From NCBI GenBank assembly GCA_035528035.1, contig DATKZI010000026.1, forward strand, positions 187,053-219,052: a DNA stretch of 32,000 bases, written 5' to 3'. The stretch is from Candidatus Bathyarchaeia archaeon (GTDB lineage Archaea > Asgardarchaeota > Heimdallarchaeia > JABLTI01). The translations under genes and the position numbers were made by a program. Positions 1 through 19,592 of the stretch are shown piece after piece (positions within the stretch are counted from its first letter, which is position 1; each line of letters opens with the position of its first letter). A model generated the notes under the pieces. The model made no database searches. It was given only the letters and a program-made list of their open reading frames with translations, and was not told the origin of the DNA.

Positions 1-1404
1 GAACAAGAGAGTAGTAAGCGGATTATAAATTCTAAAGATTATTTACAAAATGATGGAATAGCGCCAGACATAAAACGAGTAATTTTTGAATTATTAAAAT
101 TATTAAGAGAAAAACCAAAGAAAATATTACCAGAAGAAGGGTTGGAGCAATTAATTGATAATTGTTCAAAAACAGATATTCTGCGAGCAAAGGAAATAGC
201 AAGAAATGAAGCTCTTATCAAAATAATTGAAAGTTCACCGGATGATTCAACTGAAAAAATCAATCTTTTGAAATTAACTGAAAGAGGAGATGAATACTAC
301 CGAAGTTATTTGAATCTACAAAAACAAATTCCCTTAATTTCCATTACTTCTCTTGCTGTTGAGAAGAATTTTGAAAGAGATATTTTGGAACGTATGGGGA
401 ACGCTGATAAATACATTGAAGTAGGAAATTATGACAAAGCCATAGAAAATTTGTTGGAAATATCTGTGAGAATGTTAGCGGTATTACCAGAAGAGGATAG
501 ATTCAAGAATGGAAAAGAAGCTGCTAAATTACTTGAAAAGTGGTCCTATTTATCGTCCTCAAAAGAAACAGGCAATACTAGTATAGTTAAGCGATTATTC
601 ATGGAGTTTTCTCAAATAGTTGTAAATAGCCTTAAAACAATAAAACAACAAACAATAAAGACAGATGATTTAGAACAGAATTCCGAACCAAAGAGATCAG
701 CTAATGTTAGCAATAAAAAGAAGACAAGTAATAACAATGACACAGAAAATGATGATGATTTTGAAATTGATTTTAATATAGTAAATAAATCAGCTACTGA
801 ACCTGTAAAGATCGACCCATGGAAAAAACAAGTAGAAGTTATTGATGAAGCAAAGAGTAAAAATACTCAAACAACATCCAATGAAGACTCAAGTTTATTT
901 AAAGCCGCTGCAGCAGATCTACGATCAGCAGGTATGGCTCACATAGATGATAAAGGGGATATCTATAACCCCAAAAAAGACAATATCTTTGCCGATGATT
1001 TTTTTGAACGTGAACCTGATTTAGAAATTTTAAATAAAAATCCTTTCGCACCAATTAATGATAAGGATGATTCAGCGACAGTTATTATAGATAGTCAAAT
1101 AGCAAAATTGGACCAATTAAAAACAAAATTAATGATTCGAATAGCTCAAGCACTTGGAGTATCAGTTATTGATGATGAGAAATTCATCTGGCACGTTCTA
1201 GAGACCAGATATAATGGAAAACTAGATGAGAAATATACTATCTCAGAAATTGTTACCCTAATGAAAACCCTTTATCATGATGCAATGAATAAGGCATTAA
1301 TTTCCGAAATAACTTTCGCTAAAATTGAAAAGCTAATTTCTAGTGAATGTTTGCTTACTGATAATCTAATTATTGATTTGAAACAATATGTTCAAGACCT
1401 ATAA
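1..1404 (+). CDS. hypothetical protein, 5'-truncated at window edge (charged, Asp/Lys/Asn-rich; no domain recognised)
   Basis: Frame 1 is open from base 1 (GAA CAA GAG ...) to TAA at 1402-1404. The track's TTG start at 142 lies inside this open frame, so the true start is probably upstream of the window. Confidence 0.55.
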   Translation, partial: EQESSKRIINSKDYLQNDGIAPDIKRVIFELLKLLREKPKKILPEEGLEQLIDNCSKTDILRAKEIARNEALIKIIESSPDDSTEKINLLKLTERGDEYYRSYLNLQKQIPLISITSLAVEKNFERDILERMGNADKYIEVGNYDKAIENLLEISVRMLAVLPEEDRFKNGKEAAKLLEKWSYLSSSKETGNTSIVKRLFMEFSQIVVNSLKTIKQQTIKTDDLEQNSEPKRSANVSNKKKTSNNNDTENDDDFEIDFNIVNKSATEPVKIDPWKKQVEVIDEAKSKNTQTTSNEDSSLFKAAAADLRSAGMAHIDDKGDIYNPKKDNIFADDFFEREPDLEILNKNPFAPINDKDDSATVIIDSQIAKLDQLKTKLMIRIAQALGVSVIDDEKFIWHVLETRYNGKLDEKYTISEIVTLMKTLYHDAMNKALISEITFAKIEKLISSECLLTDNLIIDLKQYVQDL

Positions 1405-2865: not shown

Positions 2866-3678
2866 TCATTTGGGTTGCTGTAATTGAGTGTATTCGTATA
2901 AACTAATTAGATCTTTTTGAAGTCTCCTGAGAAGAATGATTGGTGCTAAACGATCTGCTGCTAATTCACGATCAAAAACAATGAGTAGAATTTCAAGTTG
3001 TTTCATCACATAACTTGTATAATGTTGAGTGATTGGTAATTGCGGATTGCCTGATATAAGATGAATTGTACCGGTATATGTTTTATCAGTAATCAAAGTA
3101 GTAACATCCCATAGTAATTCCTCAGTTATAGGTACTCCTTCATCTTTAAGGCGAGTTAAAATAGCTTCCACTAAAGGTTTGATATTTAATAGTTTTTTAA
3201 TTTCTTTTATGATAGAAGGTTCTTCAGGAATGATCTTATACAATCGATATTGATTTAATAAATGGTATTTGTGATATATAGGGTGTTGAGTTGGAATAGA
3301 ATCAATTTTTGTTTTAAGTGAAGAACTAACATATTCACCATCAAAAGTAAGATTAACCAGATGAATGGCTGAACCAAAGGTTAAGAGATTTTTTCGCATA
3401 AACATATTTACAGAAGCATAAATATCACTATCACTCCAGATTTGAACCGTTTGTTCAATGGAAAATGGATCAATTAAAGTTAGTCTAAGATAGGGTTTTT
3501 TGTTTTTCGCTACAAGGTCTATAGCATCTTTTAAGGTAGCAAAAATACTTACAGTACCTGGCTTGACCATTTCTTTGAAGAATAATATCGGTTCAGAATC
3601 TATCAATTTCAATAACTCCTCAGTTTTTTCTTTGATGTTTATTCTCATACCACTTTTTAGAGATTGCGCAATTGACAA
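2866..3678 (-). CDS. hypothetical protein with a probable N-terminal OB-fold and a helical C-terminal domain
   Basis: 270-aa ORF. Residues ~38-125 (VKPGTVSIFATLKDAIDLV...YLRLTLIDPFSIEQTVQIWSDSD...FGSAIHLVNLTFDGEY) follow the alternating beta-strand pattern of RPA/SSB-type OB folds. Confidence 0.5.
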   Translation of the reverse strand: MSIAQSLKSGMRINIKEKTEELLKLIDSEPILFFKEMVKPGTVSIFATLKDAIDLVAKNKKPYLRLTLIDPFSIEQTVQIWSDSDIYASVNMFMRKNLLTFGSAIHLVNLTFDGEYVSSSLKTKIDSIPTQHPIYHKYHLLNQYRLYKIIPEEPSIIKEIKKLLNIKPLVEAILTRLKDEGVPITEELLWDVTTLITDKTYTGTIHLISGNPQLPITQHYTSYVMKQLEILLIVFDRELAADRLAPIILLRRLQKDLISLYEYTQLQQPK

Positions 3679-5524: not shown

Positions 5525-6088
5525 TCAGATGGATGTTATTGCTTCTAGTTCTTTTCTCAAATCGTCAATATCTTTTTCGTTCAAATCAACTTCTTCAGAT
5601 TCACCGAAATCACTAGTCTTTACAGAAATTGTTTTATCTTTGATTTCTCTTTCTCTTTGTTGTAAAAATCTTTTCTCTCGAGCTTGTAAATCGGATTTAA
5701 TTATCTCAAAGAAATTATTGAATTGAGCTAAATCGTTTGGTGGAATTACCCAATAACGATTGGGTGAAAAACTAAAGGATTCCATCCCTAAACCAAAAAC
5801 ACTTGAACGTAGTTTTATTAAATTGCTAAATTCACCCAAATATGTAACTATGCAAATATTTCCATCAGTTGTTACAGGTAACCAATCTATTGAATTTCTT
5901 GTTCTAACTAATGAAACAATTCTACGTAATTTTTTTTCTTTTTCCCCACCACAGTTTTGAAAAACCCAGAGTGAGCAAACAGTCTCATCCTTTTCAGGTG
6001 TTCCTTTACTGCTATCTGTAGGGATTTTTATATTGTCTATAGTGATGGCTTTATTGGGTTCAGTAGCTTTTGGATTCATATAAATCAA
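5525..6088 (-). CDS. hypothetical protein
   Basis: 187-aa ORF with an alternative ATG at 6079. It has a charged, coiled-coil-like C-terminus. No motif recognised. Confidence 0.5.
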   Translation of the reverse strand: MIYMNPKATEPNKAITIDNIKIPTDSSKGTPEKDETVCSLWVFQNCGGEKEKKLRRIVSLVRTRNSIDWLPVTTDGNICIVTYLGEFSNLIKLRSSVFGLGMESFSFSPNRYWVIPPNDLAQFNNFFEIIKSDLQAREKRFLQQREREIKDKTISVKTSDFGESEEVDLNEKDIDDLRKELEAITSI

Positions 6089-17264: not shown

Positions 17265-17594
17265 TTAACACCAAGTTATCACTTTATCATATTGATCCAT
17301 AATAATGGATATTGCTTCATCATAATTTACCTGTTTTATTCCAGGATGAACATTTTCCGTAAAGATGCCACGAGCTTCTAAATCTTCCTTAACAGCAAAG
17401 ATGATCATGCCATTATTAGCAGCTTCAGCAATAATGTTCTGACCACCCTTCCAGCAAGCAAGAGTACTATCTTGAATGAGTAGAATGCCAATTTCGACTC
17501 CTTTATTCATTTGAGCTTTTGTGATATCAAGAAGTGTACTTTGAGCTGCACAAGTATAGATGCTTTTAGAAGTTATATAAAGTACTTTTGTCAT
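17265..17594 (-). CDS. dsrH: DsrH/TusB-family sulfur-relay protein
   Basis: The likely start is MTKVLY at 17594; the track start at 17609 abuts the upstream stop. Pattern LLIQDSTLA...IFAVKEDLEARGI matches TusB (LLLLQDGV...VYALNEDLIARGL). Confidence 0.8.
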   Translation of the reverse strand: MTKVLYITSKSIYTCAAQSTLLDITKAQMNKGVEIGILLIQDSTLACWKGGQNIIAEAANNGMIIFAVKEDLEARGIFTENVHPGIKQVNYDEAISIIMDQYDKVITWC

Positions 17595-17609
17595 TAATCT
17601 AACCTCCAT

Positions 17610-17969
17610 CTAAAGAGCAATTGTTGCATCTGCAAGCAACAAAAGATCACTTAATTCTTGTATAGAGATAATTTTTACCTCTAAACCGGAATCTAAATCT
17701 TCAGGTTTTATTCCTCTTTGTTTCAATGAAGATTCACAAGCGAATATTGGTATATCATATCTGTGCATTGATTCAAGTGCACCTATAACAGAATGATGAC
17801 CTATTCCATCAGGTTTTTGATTTTTGATCAGATTAAAGACTCCATCGTCAATAAAAATAGCATCTGTTTCGACATCTAGAACTAATAAACCTTGAGCTAC
17901 TCGAATACCTTCTAAACTATTGATTTGTCCGTAAGGTCCCTTACGAAATATAACAATAACTTTCTCCAT
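17610..17969 (-). CDS. dsrF: DsrF/TusC-family sulfur-relay protein
   Basis: 119 aa. Pattern GPYG...EGIRVAQGL...IFIDDGVFNL...QKPD...IFACESSLKQRGI closely parallels E. coli TusC. Confidence 0.85.
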   Translation of the reverse strand: MEKVIVIFRKGPYGQINSLEGIRVAQGLLVLDVETDAIFIDDGVFNLIKNQKPDGIGHHSVIGALESMHRYDIPIFACESSLKQRGIKPEDLDSGLEVKIISIQELSDLLLLADATIAL

Positions 17970-17980
17970 GAGTGTTCCCT

Positions 17981-18346
17981 CTATGCTGTAAAGATTAAGA
18001 TACGATCAGAGTCTTCAACGAATTCGCTAAGAGCTCCTAGACCATCAAAATTAGTTCCTTCTAGTAATAGGTCATTATTTTGTGTCCCACGATATTCAGC
18101 ACAAATTGGACAAGCAACAACTTTAACTCCTTTAGCAGCAAGCTCTTTGAAGAGTTCAGCTATGTTTCTATCCCGATCATCAGATGGTTTAATCGTATTT
18201 ACATTATTATAAACACCATCAGTATACAAGTAAATTCCAGTAACCTCATGTCCAGCTTTTAGAGCTGCATTTGCTAATTTTATTACAGTATCCGAATTCT
18301 GGAAACTATAAGGTGAGGTCATTAAAAGAAATGCCAGTTTACCCAT
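17981..18346 (-). CDS. dsrE: DsrE/TusD-family sulfurtransferase
   Basis: 121 aa. Pattern SPY...AALKAGHEVTGIYLYTDGVYN...VVACPICAEYRG...GLGALSEF parallels TusD. The active-site Cys is in register, with G at +8. Confidence 0.85.
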   Translation of the reverse strand: MGKLAFLLMTSPYSFQNSDTVIKLANAALKAGHEVTGIYLYTDGVYNNVNTIKPSDDRDRNIAELFKELAAKGVKVVACPICAEYRGTQNNDLLLEGTNFDGLGALSEFVEDSDRILIFTA

Positions 18347-18519
18347 TTTTATTTCACCTTGAATACTAAAATCAAACGAATTGATAAATGTTTAAGTGAT
18401 TTGGTTTAAAAACTAATGTTTTCTCACCTTAGAAAATAAATACTAAAATTTATTTAAAGAACATATAACATAGTATCAAATTTATATTATTAAATAAACC
18501 TTAAGGAATTTTGAATATA

Positions 18520-18939
18520 ATGGCTGAAACAAAAAGAATGGCTATTGTCGTTCATTCTGGTACCCTTGACAAAGCTTACCCCCCCTTGATGTTAGCTGCT
18601 GCAGCTGGTGCATCTGATATGGAAGTTGATTTATTCTTCACTTTCTGGGGATTAAACCTTTTAAAGAAAAAAGGTCTAAAACGTGCTAAATTATCTGGCA
18701 TGTGGAGACTTGGAACTGGAATGATGAGATTGATGATAAAGCGAACTGGTATGGCTACATTACCTGACTTATTAAAAGCAGTAGTAGAAACAGGAAAGGT
18801 AAGGTTATATGCTTGTACTGCTACAATGGATATAATGATGGTTAAAAAGGAACAATTAATACCAGAAGTAACAGGATATATGGGTGCAGCAGGATTTTTA
18901 GATATTGCTGCAGATTGTGATATTCAATTGTTCATATAA
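18520..18939 (+). CDS. DsrE2/DsrE3-like (DsrE/DsrF/DrsH family, COG2210-type) sulfur carrier
   Basis: MAETKRMAIVVHSGTLDKAYPPLMLAAAAGA...FFTFWGL...LYACTATMD...GAAGFLD. The conserved Cys lies in the ACT context. The track start (TTG at 18511) is 3 codons upstream. Confidence 0.75.
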   Translation: MAETKRMAIVVHSGTLDKAYPPLMLAAAAGASDMEVDLFFTFWGLNLLKKKGLKRAKLSGMWRLGTGMMRLMIKRTGMATLPDLLKAVVETGKVRLYACTATMDIMMVKKEQLIPEVTGYMGAAGFLDIAADCDIQLFI

Positions 18940-18953
18940 AAGGTGAAATAATA

Positions 18954-19196
18954 TTGACTGACTTGCCCAAGGCTGATAAAACACTTGATGCACGAGGAAT
19001 GCAATGTCCACTACCCATTTTAAAAGCAAAGAAGGAAATTGTTACTTTAGAAATGGGTCAAGTATTAGAAGTACTTTCTAATGATCCTGGTTCAAAAGAA
19101 GATTTTCCAAGATGGGCTAAAAGAACAGGTAATGAAATGTTAGGAATTTTTGATGAAGACGGTTACGCACGATACTTCATCAAAAGACAAGCTTAA
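18954..19196 (+). CDS. tusA: TusA/SirA-family sulfur carrier
   Basis: 80 aa. The TTG start is preceded by AGGTGA at a 7-nt spacing. The signature LDARGMQCPLPILKAKK (CP-x-P motif) is present. Confidence 0.88.
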   Translation: MTDLPKADKTLDARGMQCPLPILKAKKEIVTLEMGQVLEVLSNDPGSKEDFPRWAKRTGNEMLGIFDEDGYARYFIKRQA

Positions 19197-19240
19197 TTGC
19201 TTGTATTCCTTATTTTACCTCTTTAAAGAAACAGATTTCT

Positions 19241-19258
19241 TAGCTATTTTTTTAGCTA
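19241..19258 (+). terminator. hairpin TAGCTA-T6-TAGCTA nested in a longer imperfect stem (19218-19278), downstream of tusA
   Basis: A 6-bp stem with a T6 loop. The outer arms CCTCTTTAA / TTAAAAGAGG pair with one bulge. Confidence 0.3.
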
Positions 19259-19283
19259 GTTTATTTCCTTAAAAGAGGCAAAC

Positions 19284-19291
19284 TTTAAATA
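19284..19291 (+). promoter_or_regulatory. archaeal TATA box (TTTAAATA) with an A-rich BRE-like element, for the 5S locus
   Basis: AAACTTTAAATATA. A TATA centre about 26-28 nt upstream predicts a transcription start near A19314 or G19316, just 5' of the flanking helix. Confidence 0.55.
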
Positions 19292-19318
19292 TAGAACAAT
19301 TATCCTTTTCGATACGCG

Positions 19319-19467
19319 AAAACTCATCGCTGGAAGTTAAGCCTTCAAACGTTGTGATAATTACTGATCTGAGCGATCGTTCGGGAACATCATAAAGCTG
19401 CGTCGCGACGCGGTCATAGCTGAAGGGTAACACCCGGACTCGTCCGATCCCGGAAACGATGAGTTTT
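19319..19467 (+). other. BHB-like processing structure bracketing the permuted 5S
   Basis: The outer helix is 11 perfect bp: AAAACTCATCG (19319-19329) with CGATGAGTTTT (19457-19467). The central 4-bp helix is CUGG (19330-19333) with CCGG (19450-19453), including one G-U pair. Two 3-nt bulges lie on opposite strands, each 3' of its central-helix strand: AAG (19334-19336) and AAA (19454-19456). The inner helix is weak or absent, so the motif is relaxed (HBh'-like). Confidence 0.6.
19336..19455 (+). rRNA. rrf: 5S rRNA gene in circularly permuted order (3' portion first, 5' portion second); 120-nt core
   Basis: 19336-19405 reads GUUAAGCCUUCAAACGUUGUGAUAAUUACUGAUCUGAGCGAUCGUUCGGGAACAUCAUAAAGCUGCGUCG. 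This covers the loop B 3' side, helix II 3' strand, helix V, a loop E-like element, helix IV and the helix I 3' strand. 19406-19455 reads CGACGCGGUCAUAGCUGAAGGGUAACACCCGGACUCGUCCGAUCCCGGAA. This covers the helix I 5' strand, loop A (CAUAGC), the helix II 5' strand and helix III/loop C. Long-range pairs hold: helix II 19421-19426 with 19342-19347, helix V 19352-19358 with 19389-19395, and helix I 19397-19405 with 19406-19414. Confidence 0.8.
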
Positions 19468-19592
19468 GTGCTCTAATTTTATTTTAATTCATATTTGTTA
19501 AATCAATTTGAATTTAATGTTAATTTTTTTTAGAAAAAAATTAATAATAATAAAAACTTCGTTGAGTAGAAAAGATTGAATGGATTATAACA

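What the first reader, a model, noticed from the sequence alone, without database searches (positions are those of the whole stretch)
19319..19467. BHB-like motif whose predicted cleavage and ligation exactly restores the canonical 5S junction (120-nt circle)
The non-5S flanks are perfectly complementary over 11 bp (19319-19329 with 19457-19467). Inward of that, CUGG (19330-19333) pairs with CCGG (19450-19453). These are followed by 3-nt bulges AAG (19334-19336) and AAA (19454-19456) on opposite strands, each 3' of its central-helix strand. This is the topology of the archaeal bulge-helix-bulge substrate of the tRNA splicing endonuclease EndA, which also excises and circularises pre-16S and pre-23S.

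Applying the tRNA rule (cut between bulge nucleotides 2 and 3) releases 19336-19455. Ligating its ends gives ...GAUCCCGGAA|GUUAAGCC..., the conserved contiguous 5S sequence, with a length of exactly 120 nt. The 4-nt GGAA direct repeat at both boundaries (19332-19335 and 19452-19455) fits this register.

This suggests that RNA-level un-permutation of the 5S depends on the splicing endonuclease and RtcB ligase.

Caveats: the inner helix of the motif is weak, and the CCGG strand must switch partners to form helix III afterwards. My placement of the cut within the bulge comes from the canonical 37/38 tRNA intron geometry as I recall it.
Basis: inference. Interest (0 to 1): 0.9.

Follow-up and report, generated by a model that had tools for sequence, protein, structure and literature searches.

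The report
Circularly permuted 5S rRNA gene, Heimdallarchaeia
This Asgard (Heimdallarchaeia) archaeon encodes its 5S ribosomal RNA with the two halves in swapped order, flanked by a conserved stem shaped like the substrate of the archaeal RNA-splicing enzyme. Cutting and rejoining there would rebuild a normal 5S sequence as a closed circle, which probably explains why 5S genes could not be found in these genomes.

Summary
Window 19336-19455 is a circularly permuted 5S rRNA gene. Positions 19336-19406 match Rfam 5S model positions 52-120, and 19406-19455 match positions 1-51. Helix I is closed by a 4-nt loop with no spacer.

An 11-bp perfect helix (19319-29/19457-67), a 4-bp helix (CUGG/CCGG) and two 3-nt bulges flank the gene. 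The standard BHB cut rule releases exactly 120 nt, and joining the ends gives the canonical ...CCGGAA|GUUAAG... junction.

The organism belongs to Heimdallarchaeia (Asgard). I found the same arrangement in 11 distinct sequences from two deep Heimdallarchaeia lineages:
- The flanking helix is kept through compensatory changes: 91.5% of cells paired, 8 pairs changed on both sides, 0/500 shuffles as good.
- The central helix is 100% paired.
- The cut register is unchanged.
- A promoter-like element is conserved upstream.

Standard Rfam thresholds miss all of these genes. A 2022 paper on closed Heimdallarchaeum genomes says no 5S gene could be predicted.

Cleavage by EndA, ligation by RtcB and a circular mature 5S are inferred, not shown. 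The motif is a relaxed BHB with a weak inner helix, and a competing precursor fold exists. I found no publication describing this.

The parts
19271..19291 (+). Promoter-like element: A-rich/GGCAAAC (BRE-like) followed by the TATA-like box TTTAAATA (19284-19291).
   Evidence: AAAA..GG.AAACTTTAAA is invariant in 8 window-type loci, while the spacer downstream of it varies. That it acts as an archaeal promoter is inferred.
19314..19317 (+). Invariant ACGC just upstream of the stem. Likely transcription start, about 26 nt from the centre of the TATA-like box.
   Evidence: Invariant in 8 loci. The transcription start site is inferred from typical archaeal TATA-to-start spacing (my knowledge).
19319..19329 (+). 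Outer (exon-side, h) helix, 5' strand. Part of the discarded leader.
   Evidence: 11-nt, 100% inverted repeat with 19457-19467. 8 of 11 pairs show changes on both sides across 11 sequences.
19330..19333 (+). Central 4-bp helix H, 5' strand (CUGG). A degenerate copy of the 5S CCGG; discarded.
   Evidence: Pairs with 19450-53. This helix is 100% paired in 11 sequences.
19334..19336 (+). 5' bulge AAG. Predicted cut between A19335 and G19336.
   Evidence: Sequence. G19336 aligns to Rfam 5S model position 52. The second bulge base is A or G in relatives.
19336..19406 (+). 3' portion of the 5S rRNA: helix III 3' strand proximal part, helix II 3' strand, helices V/IV with loops E/D, and helix I 3' strand.
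   Evidence: RF00001 model 52-120, 20.6 bits, E 0.013. Consensus fold.
19397..19414 (+). Helix I closed as a hairpin: 7 bp with the 4-nt loop CGCG at 19404-19407. The natural 3' and 5' ends are fused with no spacer.
   Evidence: Alignment A3 columns 79-96. All 7 pairs are kept, 4 of them with compensatory changes. The loop is UGCG, UUCG or CUCG in relatives.
19406..19455 (+). 5' portion of the 5S rRNA: helix I 5' strand, loop A CAUAG, helix II 5' strand, helix III 5' strand, loop C, and CCGGAA.
   Evidence: RF00001 model 1-51, 31.8 bits, E 1e-5.
19434..19437 (+). Helix III 5' strand CCGG. It is the partner of 19450-53 in the mature fold and competes for the 5' copy in the precursor.
   Evidence: Pairing with the 3' copy is 100%, including one G-C to A-U change. 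Pairing with the 5' copy is broken (A.C) in L029 and L037. RNAalifold nevertheless prefers the 5'-copy pairing in the precursor.
19450..19453 (+). Central helix H, 3' strand (CCGG). The same bases form the helix III 3' strand of the mature 5S.
19454..19456 (+). 3' bulge AAA. Predicted cut between A19455 and A19456. A19454 and A19455 are the conserved bulged AA of 5S helix III.
   Evidence: A19455 aligns to Rfam model position 51. The third bulge base is A in 10 sequences and U in 1.
19457..19467 (+). Outer helix, 3' strand. Part of the discarded trailer.
19464..19485 (+). T-runs (TTTT, then TTTTATTTT) that could serve as archaeal oligo-T termination signals.
   Evidence: Sequence. Conservation ends right after the helix. 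The termination function is inferred.

Best explanation
Window 19336-19455 is the 5S rRNA gene of a Heimdallarchaeia (Asgard) archaeon, encoded in circularly permuted order. It runs from model positions 52-120, through a tetraloop that closes helix I, to model positions 1-51.

The gene is probably transcribed from its own promoter, from about 19314 to the T-runs after 19464. In the transcript, the leader and trailer pair into a processing stem of 11 bp. The leader's CUGG pairs with the 5S's own CCGG. This places A19335|G19336 and A19455|A19456 in two 3-nt bulges across a 4-bp helix, which is a relaxed bulge-helix-bulge motif.

Proposed maturation, all inferred:
1. The splicing endonuclease EndA cuts both bulges.
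2. The 3'-phosphate ligase RtcB joins the ends of the excised 120-mer.
3. The CCGG strand then switches partner to form helix III, with the ligation junction directly after the conserved bulged AA.

The product is a covalently closed 120-nt 5S rRNA with a canonical fold. Because helix I is capped by a bare tetraloop with nothing to trim, I think the circle itself is the mature form.

What is shown: the sequence, the 5S homology, the permutation point, and conservation with covariation of the stem and cut register. What is inferred: transcription, cleavage, ligation and circularity.

The repeated CYGGAA at both ends, whose core CCGG is palindromic, suggests an origin by tandem duplication and partial deletion. 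That would have supplied the central helix and both bulges at once.
For: Identity and break point:
- The two Rfam half-matches abut at model positions 51|52 and 120|1.
- The un-permuted sequences, aligned with canonical archaeal 5S, give the canonical three-way fold with 19 of 34 compensatory pairs.
- The minimum-free-energy fold of the circle is the canonical 5S fold.

Real gene, not an artefact:
- An identical locus occurs in 3 assemblies.
- The same permuted gene lies in a conserved neighbourhood (PAC2, ParA, DsrH/E/E, DsrE2, TusA) in every window-type locus that reaches the 5S, at 83-100% identity. The one more distant locus, L040, has none.
- A promoter-like element is conserved upstream.
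- There is one copy per locus.

Processing stem:
- 91.5% of cells are paired.
- 8 of 11 outer pairs changed on both sides.
- 0 of 500 shuffles reach the observed values.
- Sliding the register drops pairing to 27-54%.
- Within-lineage events include G-C to A-U next to H, C-G to G-C in L019, and U-A to C-G between L005 and L032/L035.
- Central helix H is 100% paired.

Second lineage. L005, L032, L034 and L035 have unrelated flank sequences (GGGUG/CACCC or GGCG/CGCC, plus a distal 8-9 bp helix) but the same H, bulges and cut register. In that lineage the 5' bulge is AG|G. Only a cut after bulge nucleotide 2 gives the canonical GGAA|G junction.

The 3' copy is the one that is kept. It covaries with helix III (G-C to A-U), while the 5' copy does not and drifts (CUGG, AG).

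Feasibility:
- The BHB conformer lies only 0-5.3 kcal/mol above the minimum free energy in all 11 sequences.
- Asgard archaea, including Heimdall AB_125, are reported to have the (alpha-beta)2 EndA with the L1 loop, which cleaves relaxed BHB/BHL motifs (PMC5829648).
- EndA products are circularised in archaea (PMC7714728).

Context:
- No 5S could be predicted in closed Heimdallarchaeum genomes (PMC8813620).
- Rfam gathering misses all permuted loci but finds the canonical ones.
Against: - There are no RNA data. Transcription, cleavage, ligation and circularity are all untested.
- The inner (intron-side) helix h' is absent in the window lineage, so this is not a strict hBHBh' motif.
- RNAalifold and RNAfold prefer a different precursor fold. 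In it, the leader's CYGG pairs with the helix III 5' strand, and loop C is pushed out as a side hairpin.
- The evidence that the 3' copy rather than the 5' copy forms helix III rests on one evolutionary event, seen in two closely related sequences.
- The central helix and the bulge bases are largely fixed by 5S sequence constraints and by the duplicated CYGGAA, so their conservation alone is weak evidence. The covariation signal comes from the outer helix.
- I could not check the rest of these genomes for a second, canonical 5S gene.
- No EndA or RtcB gene lies in the window.
Confidence: 0.68

Rival explanations
1. Linear permuted 5S. The gene is permuted and functional, but the RNA is never ligated. 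One possibility is that the stem is trimmed, by EndA or another nuclease, and the 5S works with a nick in helix III. The other is that the precursor keeps the alternative fold, in which the leader's CYGGAA supplies the helix III strand and the stem stays as an extension.
For: The alternative fold is the thermodynamically preferred precursor structure for single sequences and for the alignment. Brown-algal mitochondrial 5S rRNAs stay permuted in the final product (PMC4267664). No RNA evidence for a circle exists.
Against: The loop C sequence and the helix III covariation (G-C to A-U with the 3' copy, A.C with the 5' copy) favour the canonical helix III/loop C hairpin. The stem differs completely in sequence, length and architecture between the two lineages, as expected for a discarded processing stem. 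The bulges sit in the exact BHB register in all 11 sequences. In archaea, BHB-excised RNAs are circularised.
Confidence: 0.2
2. Circular intermediate only. EndA and RtcB make the circle, which is then re-opened in or near the helix I loop to give a conventional linear 5S. This would parallel permuted tRNAs and circular pre-16S rRNA.
For: Permuted tRNA genes and archaeal pre-16S rRNA mature through a circle that is later linearised (PMC4267664 citing Soma 2007; PMC10515664).
Against: The natural ends are fused through a 4-nt loop (CGCG, UGCG, UUCG or CUCG) with no spacer and no recognisable processing signal. Helix I is already about 2 bp shorter than in the canonical sequences aligned with it.
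Confidence: 0.1
3. Artefact or pseudogene. The permuted order would be a mis-assembly or a decayed 5S fragment pair, and the stem would be coincidental.
For: All data come from metagenome assemblies. One relative (L027) carries an internally deleted copy, and three contigs end inside the gene.
Against: The arrangement is identical in at least 10 independent assemblies from two lineages. The 5S helices and the flanking stem both show compensatory evolution, the promoter-like element is conserved, and there is one copy per locus.
Confidence: 0.02

Closest known systems
Circularly permuted tRNA genes matured through a BHB and a circular RNA. Cyanidioschyzon merolae: Soma et al. 2007, cited in PMC4267664. 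Permuted tRNAs of the archaeon Thermofilum pendens are from my own knowledge.
   Same: The 3' half is encoded upstream of the 5' half. Leader and trailer pair to form a BHB exactly at the position where the mature sequence must be joined. Splicing endonuclease plus ligase would restore the contiguous sequence through a circle.
   Different: The RNA here is a ribosomal RNA, not a tRNA. The natural ends are fused by a bare tetraloop rather than by a spacer that RNase P and tRNase Z remove, so the circle may be the end product. The lineage is Asgard archaea.
Archaeal pre-16S/pre-23S processing stems with BHB motifs and circular pre-rRNAs, including circular 23S inside ribosomes (PMC7714728, PMC10515664, PMC12918454).
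   Same: A leader-trailer helix carries a BHB. EndA cuts, and a ligase then circularises the excised rRNA. A circular rRNA can be the form present in the ribosome.
   Different: Those genes are collinear with the mature rRNA, and ligation joins the natural ends. Here ligation creates an internal junction in helix III that the 5S sequence needs. The literature states that circularisation applies to 16S and 23S 'but not 5S' (PMC12918454). Known archaeal 5S maturation uses tRNase Z or A/U-motif cleavage. This 5S has its own promoter.
Permuted mitochondrial 5S rRNAs of brown algae and other stramenopiles (Valach et al. 2014, PMC4267664).
   Same: It is a 5S rRNA whose helix I is replaced or closed by a hairpin and whose ends lie elsewhere. 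It is missed by the standard 5S covariance model.
   Different: In the algae the ends sit at the alpha/gamma junction, there is no BHB, and the RNA stays permuted. Here the break is in helix III, directly after the bulged AA, and a BHB predicts re-joining.
Circularly permuted 23S rRNA of Pyrococcus furiosus and Thermococcus barophilus (PMC7758197; bioRxiv 10.64898/2026.03.23.713588).
   Same: It links BHB-dependent circularisation with permutation of an archaeal large-subunit rRNA.
   Different: The direction is opposite. There the gene is normal and the mature RNA is permuted, after helix 98 is excised. Here the gene is permuted and processing would restore the normal connectivity.

Membership tests
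5S rRNA (Rfam RF00001) | Score at or above the curated gathering threshold (38 bits) as a contiguous gene | tested here: not met
   Not reported at gathering. The best contiguous alignment scores 17.5 bits and only the 5' half is truly aligned. The same holds for all permuted relatives.
5S rRNA (Rfam RF00001) | Full coverage of the model by sequence and structure once the permutation is allowed for | tested here: met
   Model positions 52-120 map to 19336-19406 (20.6 bits) and positions 1-51 map to 19406-19455 (31.8 bits). The sum is 52.4 bits without the inter-half pairs.
5S rRNA (Rfam RF00001) | Three-way junction with helices I-V supported by covariation, and conserved loop A, C and E motifs | tested here: met
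   RNAalifold on 9 un-permuted plus 3 canonical sequences gives 34 pairs, 19 of them compensatory. CAUAG, ACACCCGG...CCGGAAGUUAAG, UACUG and GGGAA are conserved.
Canonical BHB splicing motif (hBHBh') | Central helix of exactly 4 bp | tested here: met
   19330-33 pairs with 19450-53. The helix is 100% paired in 11 sequences.
Canonical BHB splicing motif (hBHBh') | Two 3-nt bulges on opposite strands, each 3' of its central-helix strand | tested here: inconclusive
   The 3' bulge (AAA, or AAU in one relative) is closed on both sides. The 5' 'bulge' (AAG or AGG) is closed only by H, and the other side opens into the body of the 5S.
Canonical BHB splicing motif (hBHBh') | Exon-side helix h with at least 2 Watson-Crick pairs (definition in PMC7714728) | tested here: met
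   11 bp in the window. The 4 proximal pairs are kept in all 11 sequences with compensatory changes.
Canonical BHB splicing motif (hBHBh') | Intron-side helix h' with at least 2 Watson-Crick pairs closing the other bulge | tested here: not met
   In the window lineage, U19337 faces C19449 and no adjacent pairs form. In the L005 lineage GUU could pair with AAC next to H, giving a 2-nt bulge (by eye). The motif therefore belongs to the relaxed hBH/BHL class, which only broad-specificity EndA types cleave.
Canonical BHB splicing motif (hBHBh') | Actual cleavage by EndA at the two bulges | not testable with these tools
   This needs an in vitro assay or RNA end mapping.
Permuted RNA genes expressed via a circular intermediate (C. 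merolae type) | 3' half upstream of the 5' half, with a BHB formed by leader and trailer at the junction to be restored | tested here: met
Permuted RNA genes expressed via a circular intermediate (C. merolae type) | An intervening sequence between the natural 3' and 5' ends that is removed to linearise the circle | tested here: not met
   Model positions 120 and 1 meet at C19406. Only a 4-nt hairpin loop lies between the helix I strands.
Permuted RNA genes expressed via a circular intermediate (C. merolae type) | A detectable circular RNA | not testable with these tools
   No transcriptome data can be reached with these tools.
Archaeal rRNA processing stem (16S/23S type) | A long leader-trailer helix with an embedded BHB, conserved by covariation | tested here: met
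   The L005 lineage adds a distal 8-9 bp helix.
Archaeal rRNA processing stem (16S/23S type) | The rRNA gene is collinear with the mature rRNA | tested here: not met
   The gene is permuted.

The most novel reading that the evidence does not exclude
The functional 5S rRNA in the ribosomes of Heimdallarchaeia, the archaeal class from which eukaryotes are thought to have emerged, would be a covalently closed circle. It would be made by the tRNA-splicing machinery from a circularly permuted gene. The arrangement would be ancestral to a large part of the class. It would be the first permuted rRNA gene that needs RNA ligation to function, and the first naturally circular 5S.
Probability: 0.5. Interest if true: 0.95.

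Novelty: new variant of a known kind. Interest (0 to 1): 0.9.

Why it matters
- 5S rRNA is universal, and its gene is considered trivially recognisable. Here it is invisible to standard annotation. This gives a concrete answer to why 5S 'could not be predicted' in closed Heimdallarchaeum genomes (PMC8813620). It probably also explains why Heimdallarchaeial MAGs would lack a detectable 5S when scored for the 5S rRNA that high-quality-draft MAG descriptions report (my inference; not checked).
- It would make the tRNA-splicing endonuclease and ligase essential for producing a core ribosomal RNA sequence, not only for trimming. It would extend BHB-dependent circularisation to the one archaeal rRNA said not to use it.
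- It predicts a circular 5S in ribosomes of the closest archaeal relatives of eukaryotes. This is directly testable in existing enrichment cultures and metatranscriptomes.
- It offers a clean case of how an RNA gene becomes permuted. A tandem duplication leaves a palindromic CCGGAA repeat that immediately supplies the central helix and bulges of a BHB.
- A covariance model for the permuted form, such as R1 here, would let annotators find these genes.

Tried and rejected
1. Rfam at gathering threshold on the window and 15 loci. It finds canonical 5S in unrelated archaea but none of the permuted genes. This is why the half-by-half searches were needed.
2. Pattern scan of genome contigs. It gave 8 hits, of which only L005 was a true permuted 5S. 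Four were canonical 5S genes with a chance upstream GTTAAGC, and three were random bacterial hits. In hindsight the pattern was too strict: CAYAG misses the CAAAG relatives, and CCCGG/CCGGAA misses the CCCGA/UCGGAA relatives. The scan therefore says nothing about how widespread the gene is.
3. Pattern scan of metagenome contigs. It gave a single hit, L012.
4. A more distant syntenic locus, L040 (DsrE2 64% identical). No permuted or canonical 5S was found within 12 kb.
5. Thermodynamic folding does not recover the BHB as the minimum-free-energy structure. I kept this as a rival conformer rather than dismissing it.
6. I looked for EndA and RtcB in the window. Neither is present.
7. Ten literature searches for a prior description returned no such paper (terms included permuted or circular 5S, Asgard or Heimdall 5S, and BHB with 5S). 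The library lacks most subscription-journal papers.
8. Taxonomy of the loci from Eme et al. 2023 supplements. Only JAFGMH01 was found, labelled Heimdallarchaeaceae.
9. Assembly-artefact and pseudogene readings were rejected (see rival explanations).
Full report
**What is in the sequence**

Window 19319-19467 reads AAAACUCAUCG-CUGG-AAG...CCGG-AAA-CGAUGAGUUUU. The repeat finder reports arms 19319-19329 and 19457-19467 as an 11-nt, 100% complementary inverted repeat with 127 nt between them. Inside the repeat, CUGG (19330-33) can pair with CCGG (19450-53). Each of these strands is followed on its 3' side by three unpaired bases, AAG at 19334-36 and AAA at 19454-56.

**The enclosed 120 nt are a circularly permuted 5S rRNA**

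Rfam at its gathering threshold finds only a tRNA-Thr in the 32-kb window and no 5S. In permissive mode, a 17.5-bit 5S hit aligns only the 5' half properly. I then searched the two pieces separately, so that Infernal could treat each as a truncated hit:
- 19336-19406 matches RF00001 model positions 52-120 (20.6 bits, E 0.013).
- 19406-19455 matches model positions 1-51 (31.8 bits, E 1e-5).

So the gene starts at model position 52 (the G of GUUAAG) and runs to the natural 3' end. It continues without a spacer into the natural 5' end and stops at model position 51 (the last A of CCGGAA).

When the sequence is cut in the helix I loop and re-ordered, it folds into the three-way 5S shape. RNAalifold returns helices I to V with 34 pairs, 19 of them showing compensatory changes. 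In the Rfam consensus structure, the break point lies inside helix III, directly after the conserved bulged AA (alignment).

**Which organism**

The window encodes a thermosome, Nop5, PAC2, a DsrE/F/H-TusA cluster and ZnuABC, at about 32% G+C.

Homologues of the DsrE2 neighbour at 70-92% identity are named 'Candidatus Heimdallarchaeota archaeon' by NCBI. One of those assemblies, JAFGMH01 (locus L013), has a 5S identical to the window's. It is labelled Heimdallarchaeaceae in the supplement of Eme et al. 2023.

**The gene is real and conserved**

The exact TusA protein of the window occurs on three independent assemblies with an identical intergenic region.

I used DsrE2 homologues to fetch syntenic loci. 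Every locus with the neighbourhood PAC2, ParA, DsrH/E/E, DsrE2 and TusA that reaches the 5S position carries the same permuted 120-nt gene, at 83-100% identity.

A pattern scan of one genome per species found one more case, L005. It comes from MAG Dive96-bin3.136 from a Southwest Indian Ridge vent. GTDB classifies it as class Heimdallarchaeia with no order assigned. Homologues of its neighbour gene led to three more loci of that lineage, L032, L034 and L035.

A covariance model built from the 11 distinct precursors finds one copy per locus. It finds no further copy in the window. Rfam at gathering threshold misses every permuted locus, yet it finds the canonical 5S genes of unrelated archaea in the same run.

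**The flanking structure is under selection**

In the 11-sequence alignment A3 I counted pairs for the outer helix (columns 1-11 with 140-150) and the central helix (columns 12-15 with 133-136). The results:
- 91.5% of cells form standard pairs.
- 8 of the 11 outer pairs show changes on both sides.
- None of 500 column shuffles reaches the observed pairing, the double-change counts or the covariation score.
- Sliding the 3' partner by 1-3 columns drops pairing to 27-54%.
- The four outer pairs next to the motif are paired in all 11 sequences.
- The central helix is 100% paired.

Individual events within otherwise near-identical genes:
- G-C to A-U at the pair next to the central helix.
- C-G to G-C in L019.
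- Several U-A to U.G changes.
- U-A (L005) to C-G (L032, L035) in the second lineage.

That second lineage has entirely different flank sequences: a 4-5 bp proximal helix, an internal loop with a small trailer hairpin, and a distal 8-9 bp helix. It still has the same 4-bp helix, the same bulges (AG|G and AA|A or AA|U) and the same register.

Outside the stem, conservation collapses downstream. Upstream, it is limited to AAAA..GGCAAACTTTAAA, which is BRE/TATA-like, and to an invariant ACGC about 26 nt further on, just before the stem. This fits a dedicated transcription unit that starts near 19314.

**Register**

The canonical geometry follows from tRNA numbering. Of the seven anticodon-loop bases, 32-35 form the central helix, 36-37 are bulge bases 1-2 before the 37/38 cut, and 38 is base 3 of the other bulge. 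Each bulge therefore lies 3' of its helix strand, and each cut falls after bulge base 2.

Applied here, the cuts are 19335|19336 and 19455|19456. The excised piece is exactly Rfam positions 52-120 plus 1-51, and ligation yields CCGGAA|GUUAAG.

Most relatives carry CCGGAA on both sides, so several symmetric registers would give the same product in them. In the L005 lineage the leader reads CCGGAG, and only the BHB register gives the canonical GGAAG.

The leader copy is the one that drifts (CUGG in the window, AG in L005-type). The 3' copy covaries with the helix III 5' strand, G-C to A-U in L029 and L037. The leader copy would give an A.C mismatch there. That is one evolutionary event, so it is only modest support.

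**How it most likely works**

The transcript forms the leader-trailer stem. The leader's CYGG captures the 5S CCGG, which presents a relaxed BHB. It has an exon-side helix, a proper 3' bulge and a 4-bp helix, while the 5' site is closed only on one side.

- Enzyme range. Strict hBHBh' motifs need an intron-side helix of at least 2 Watson-Crick pairs (definition in PMC7714728). That feature is not met in the window lineage. Only (alpha-beta)2 and epsilon2 endonucleases cut such relaxed motifs. Asgard archaea, including Heimdallarchaeota AB_125, are reported to have the (alpha-beta)2 enzyme with the L1 specificity loop (PMC5829648).
- Ligation. Archaeal EndA products, both introns and pre-rRNAs, are circularised by the ligase (PMC7714728).
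- After ligation. CCGG re-pairs with 19434-37 to form helix III. The minimum-free-energy fold of the circle is the canonical 5S.
- End product. Helix I is capped by a bare 4-nt loop (CGCG, UGCG, UUCG or CUCG) with nothing to trim. I therefore favour the circle as the mature form. Circular 23S rRNA in archaeal ribosomes has been reported recently (PMC12918454).

**Caveat: a competing fold**

RNAfold and RNAalifold prefer a precursor in which the leader CYGG pairs with the helix III 5' strand, and loop C plus the 3' copy form a side hairpin. The BHB conformer costs 0-5.3 kcal/mol more. This leaves room for the rival in which the RNA stays linear and permuted. Only RNA data can settle it.

**Origin (inference)**

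The CYGGAA repeat at both ends is what a tandem 5S duplication followed by loss of the outer parts would leave. Because CCGG is its own reverse complement, the two copies pair. The following AA-G and AA-N become the bulges. Only the outer helix had to evolve.

**Comparison with what is known**

- Mechanism. The nearest mechanistic relative is the permuted tRNA gene processed through a BHB and a circle (Soma 2007, via PMC4267664). There, a spacer at the natural ends is removed to linearise the circle.
- Archaeal 16S/23S stems. They use the same enzymes but the genes are collinear. The literature explicitly excludes 5S from this pathway (PMC12918454).
- Known archaeal 5S maturation. It uses tRNase Z or A/U-motif cleavages.
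- Circular 5S reads. Low-level reads in Sulfolobus and Halobacterium were noted but could not be validated. They concern canonical genes (PMC3326292).
- Brown-algal mitochondrial 5S. It is permuted at a different site and stays permuted.
- Pyrococcus 23S. This is the reverse case, with a normal gene and a permuted RNA.

**Novelty**

The ten literature searches returned no description of a permuted or circular 5S gene in archaea. Wu et al. [quoted passage not shown] The present gene offers an explanation. The library lacks most subscription-journal papers, so prior description cannot be fully excluded.

I class this as a new variant of a known kind. BHB-mediated repair of a permuted RNA gene is known. 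Its use for an rRNA is new, and so is a probable circular end product.

Noticed in passing
window 19214-19231 / 19265-19282 (inner palindrome about 19240-19259): An 18-nt imperfect inverted repeat (83%) lies between the tusA stop codon and the 5S promoter-like element. It produced spurious microRNA hits on both strands. It could be the tusA terminator or a regulatory hairpin abutting the BRE/TATA-like element.
   Followed up: partly
window 19514-19530 / 19534-19550: An AT-rich hairpin (17-nt arms, 88% complementary, 3-nt loop) lies between the 5S unit and znuA. It may be a terminator or an operator for the metal-uptake operon.
   Followed up: no
L027 4823-4916; ends of L028, L030, L031 (about 4879, 4880, 4868): One relative carries the permuted 5S with an internal deletion of about 55-60 nt (GAGCG|CACCCG). 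Three other contigs all end at the same point, about 57 nt into the precursor. This could be an assembly break at a palindromic stretch or strain heterogeneity. It is not explained.
   Followed up: partly
L037 6757-9205; L013 4428-5203: Extra genes are inserted next to the 5S in some relatives. L037 has two ORFs without Pfam hits (317 and 296 aa) between tusA and the 5S. L013 has a methyltransferase plus a 52-aa ORF between the 5S and znuA. The surrounding synteny is otherwise rigid.
   Followed up: no
L005 4590-4800; L032, L034, L035 equivalent regions: In the second Heimdallarchaeia lineage the leader and trailer also form a distal 8-9 bp helix (GACGCGUG/CACGCGUC), with a small hairpin in the trailer. 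The TATA-like box (CTTTTATAAA) lies about 50 nt upstream of the stem, so the leader is longer.
   Followed up: partly
window 142-1404, 1399-1929, 1998-2843, 2866-3678, 5525-6088: Five sizeable ORFs have no Pfam match at E <= 0.001. The first pair overlap on opposite strands, so some may not be genes.
   Followed up: no
window 17265-19196: A compact sulfur-relay cluster (DsrH, DsrE, DsrE, DsrE2, TusA) sits immediately upstream of the 5S. It is conserved in order in all window-type relatives examined and also in the more distant L040, which has no 5S nearby.
   Followed up: partly
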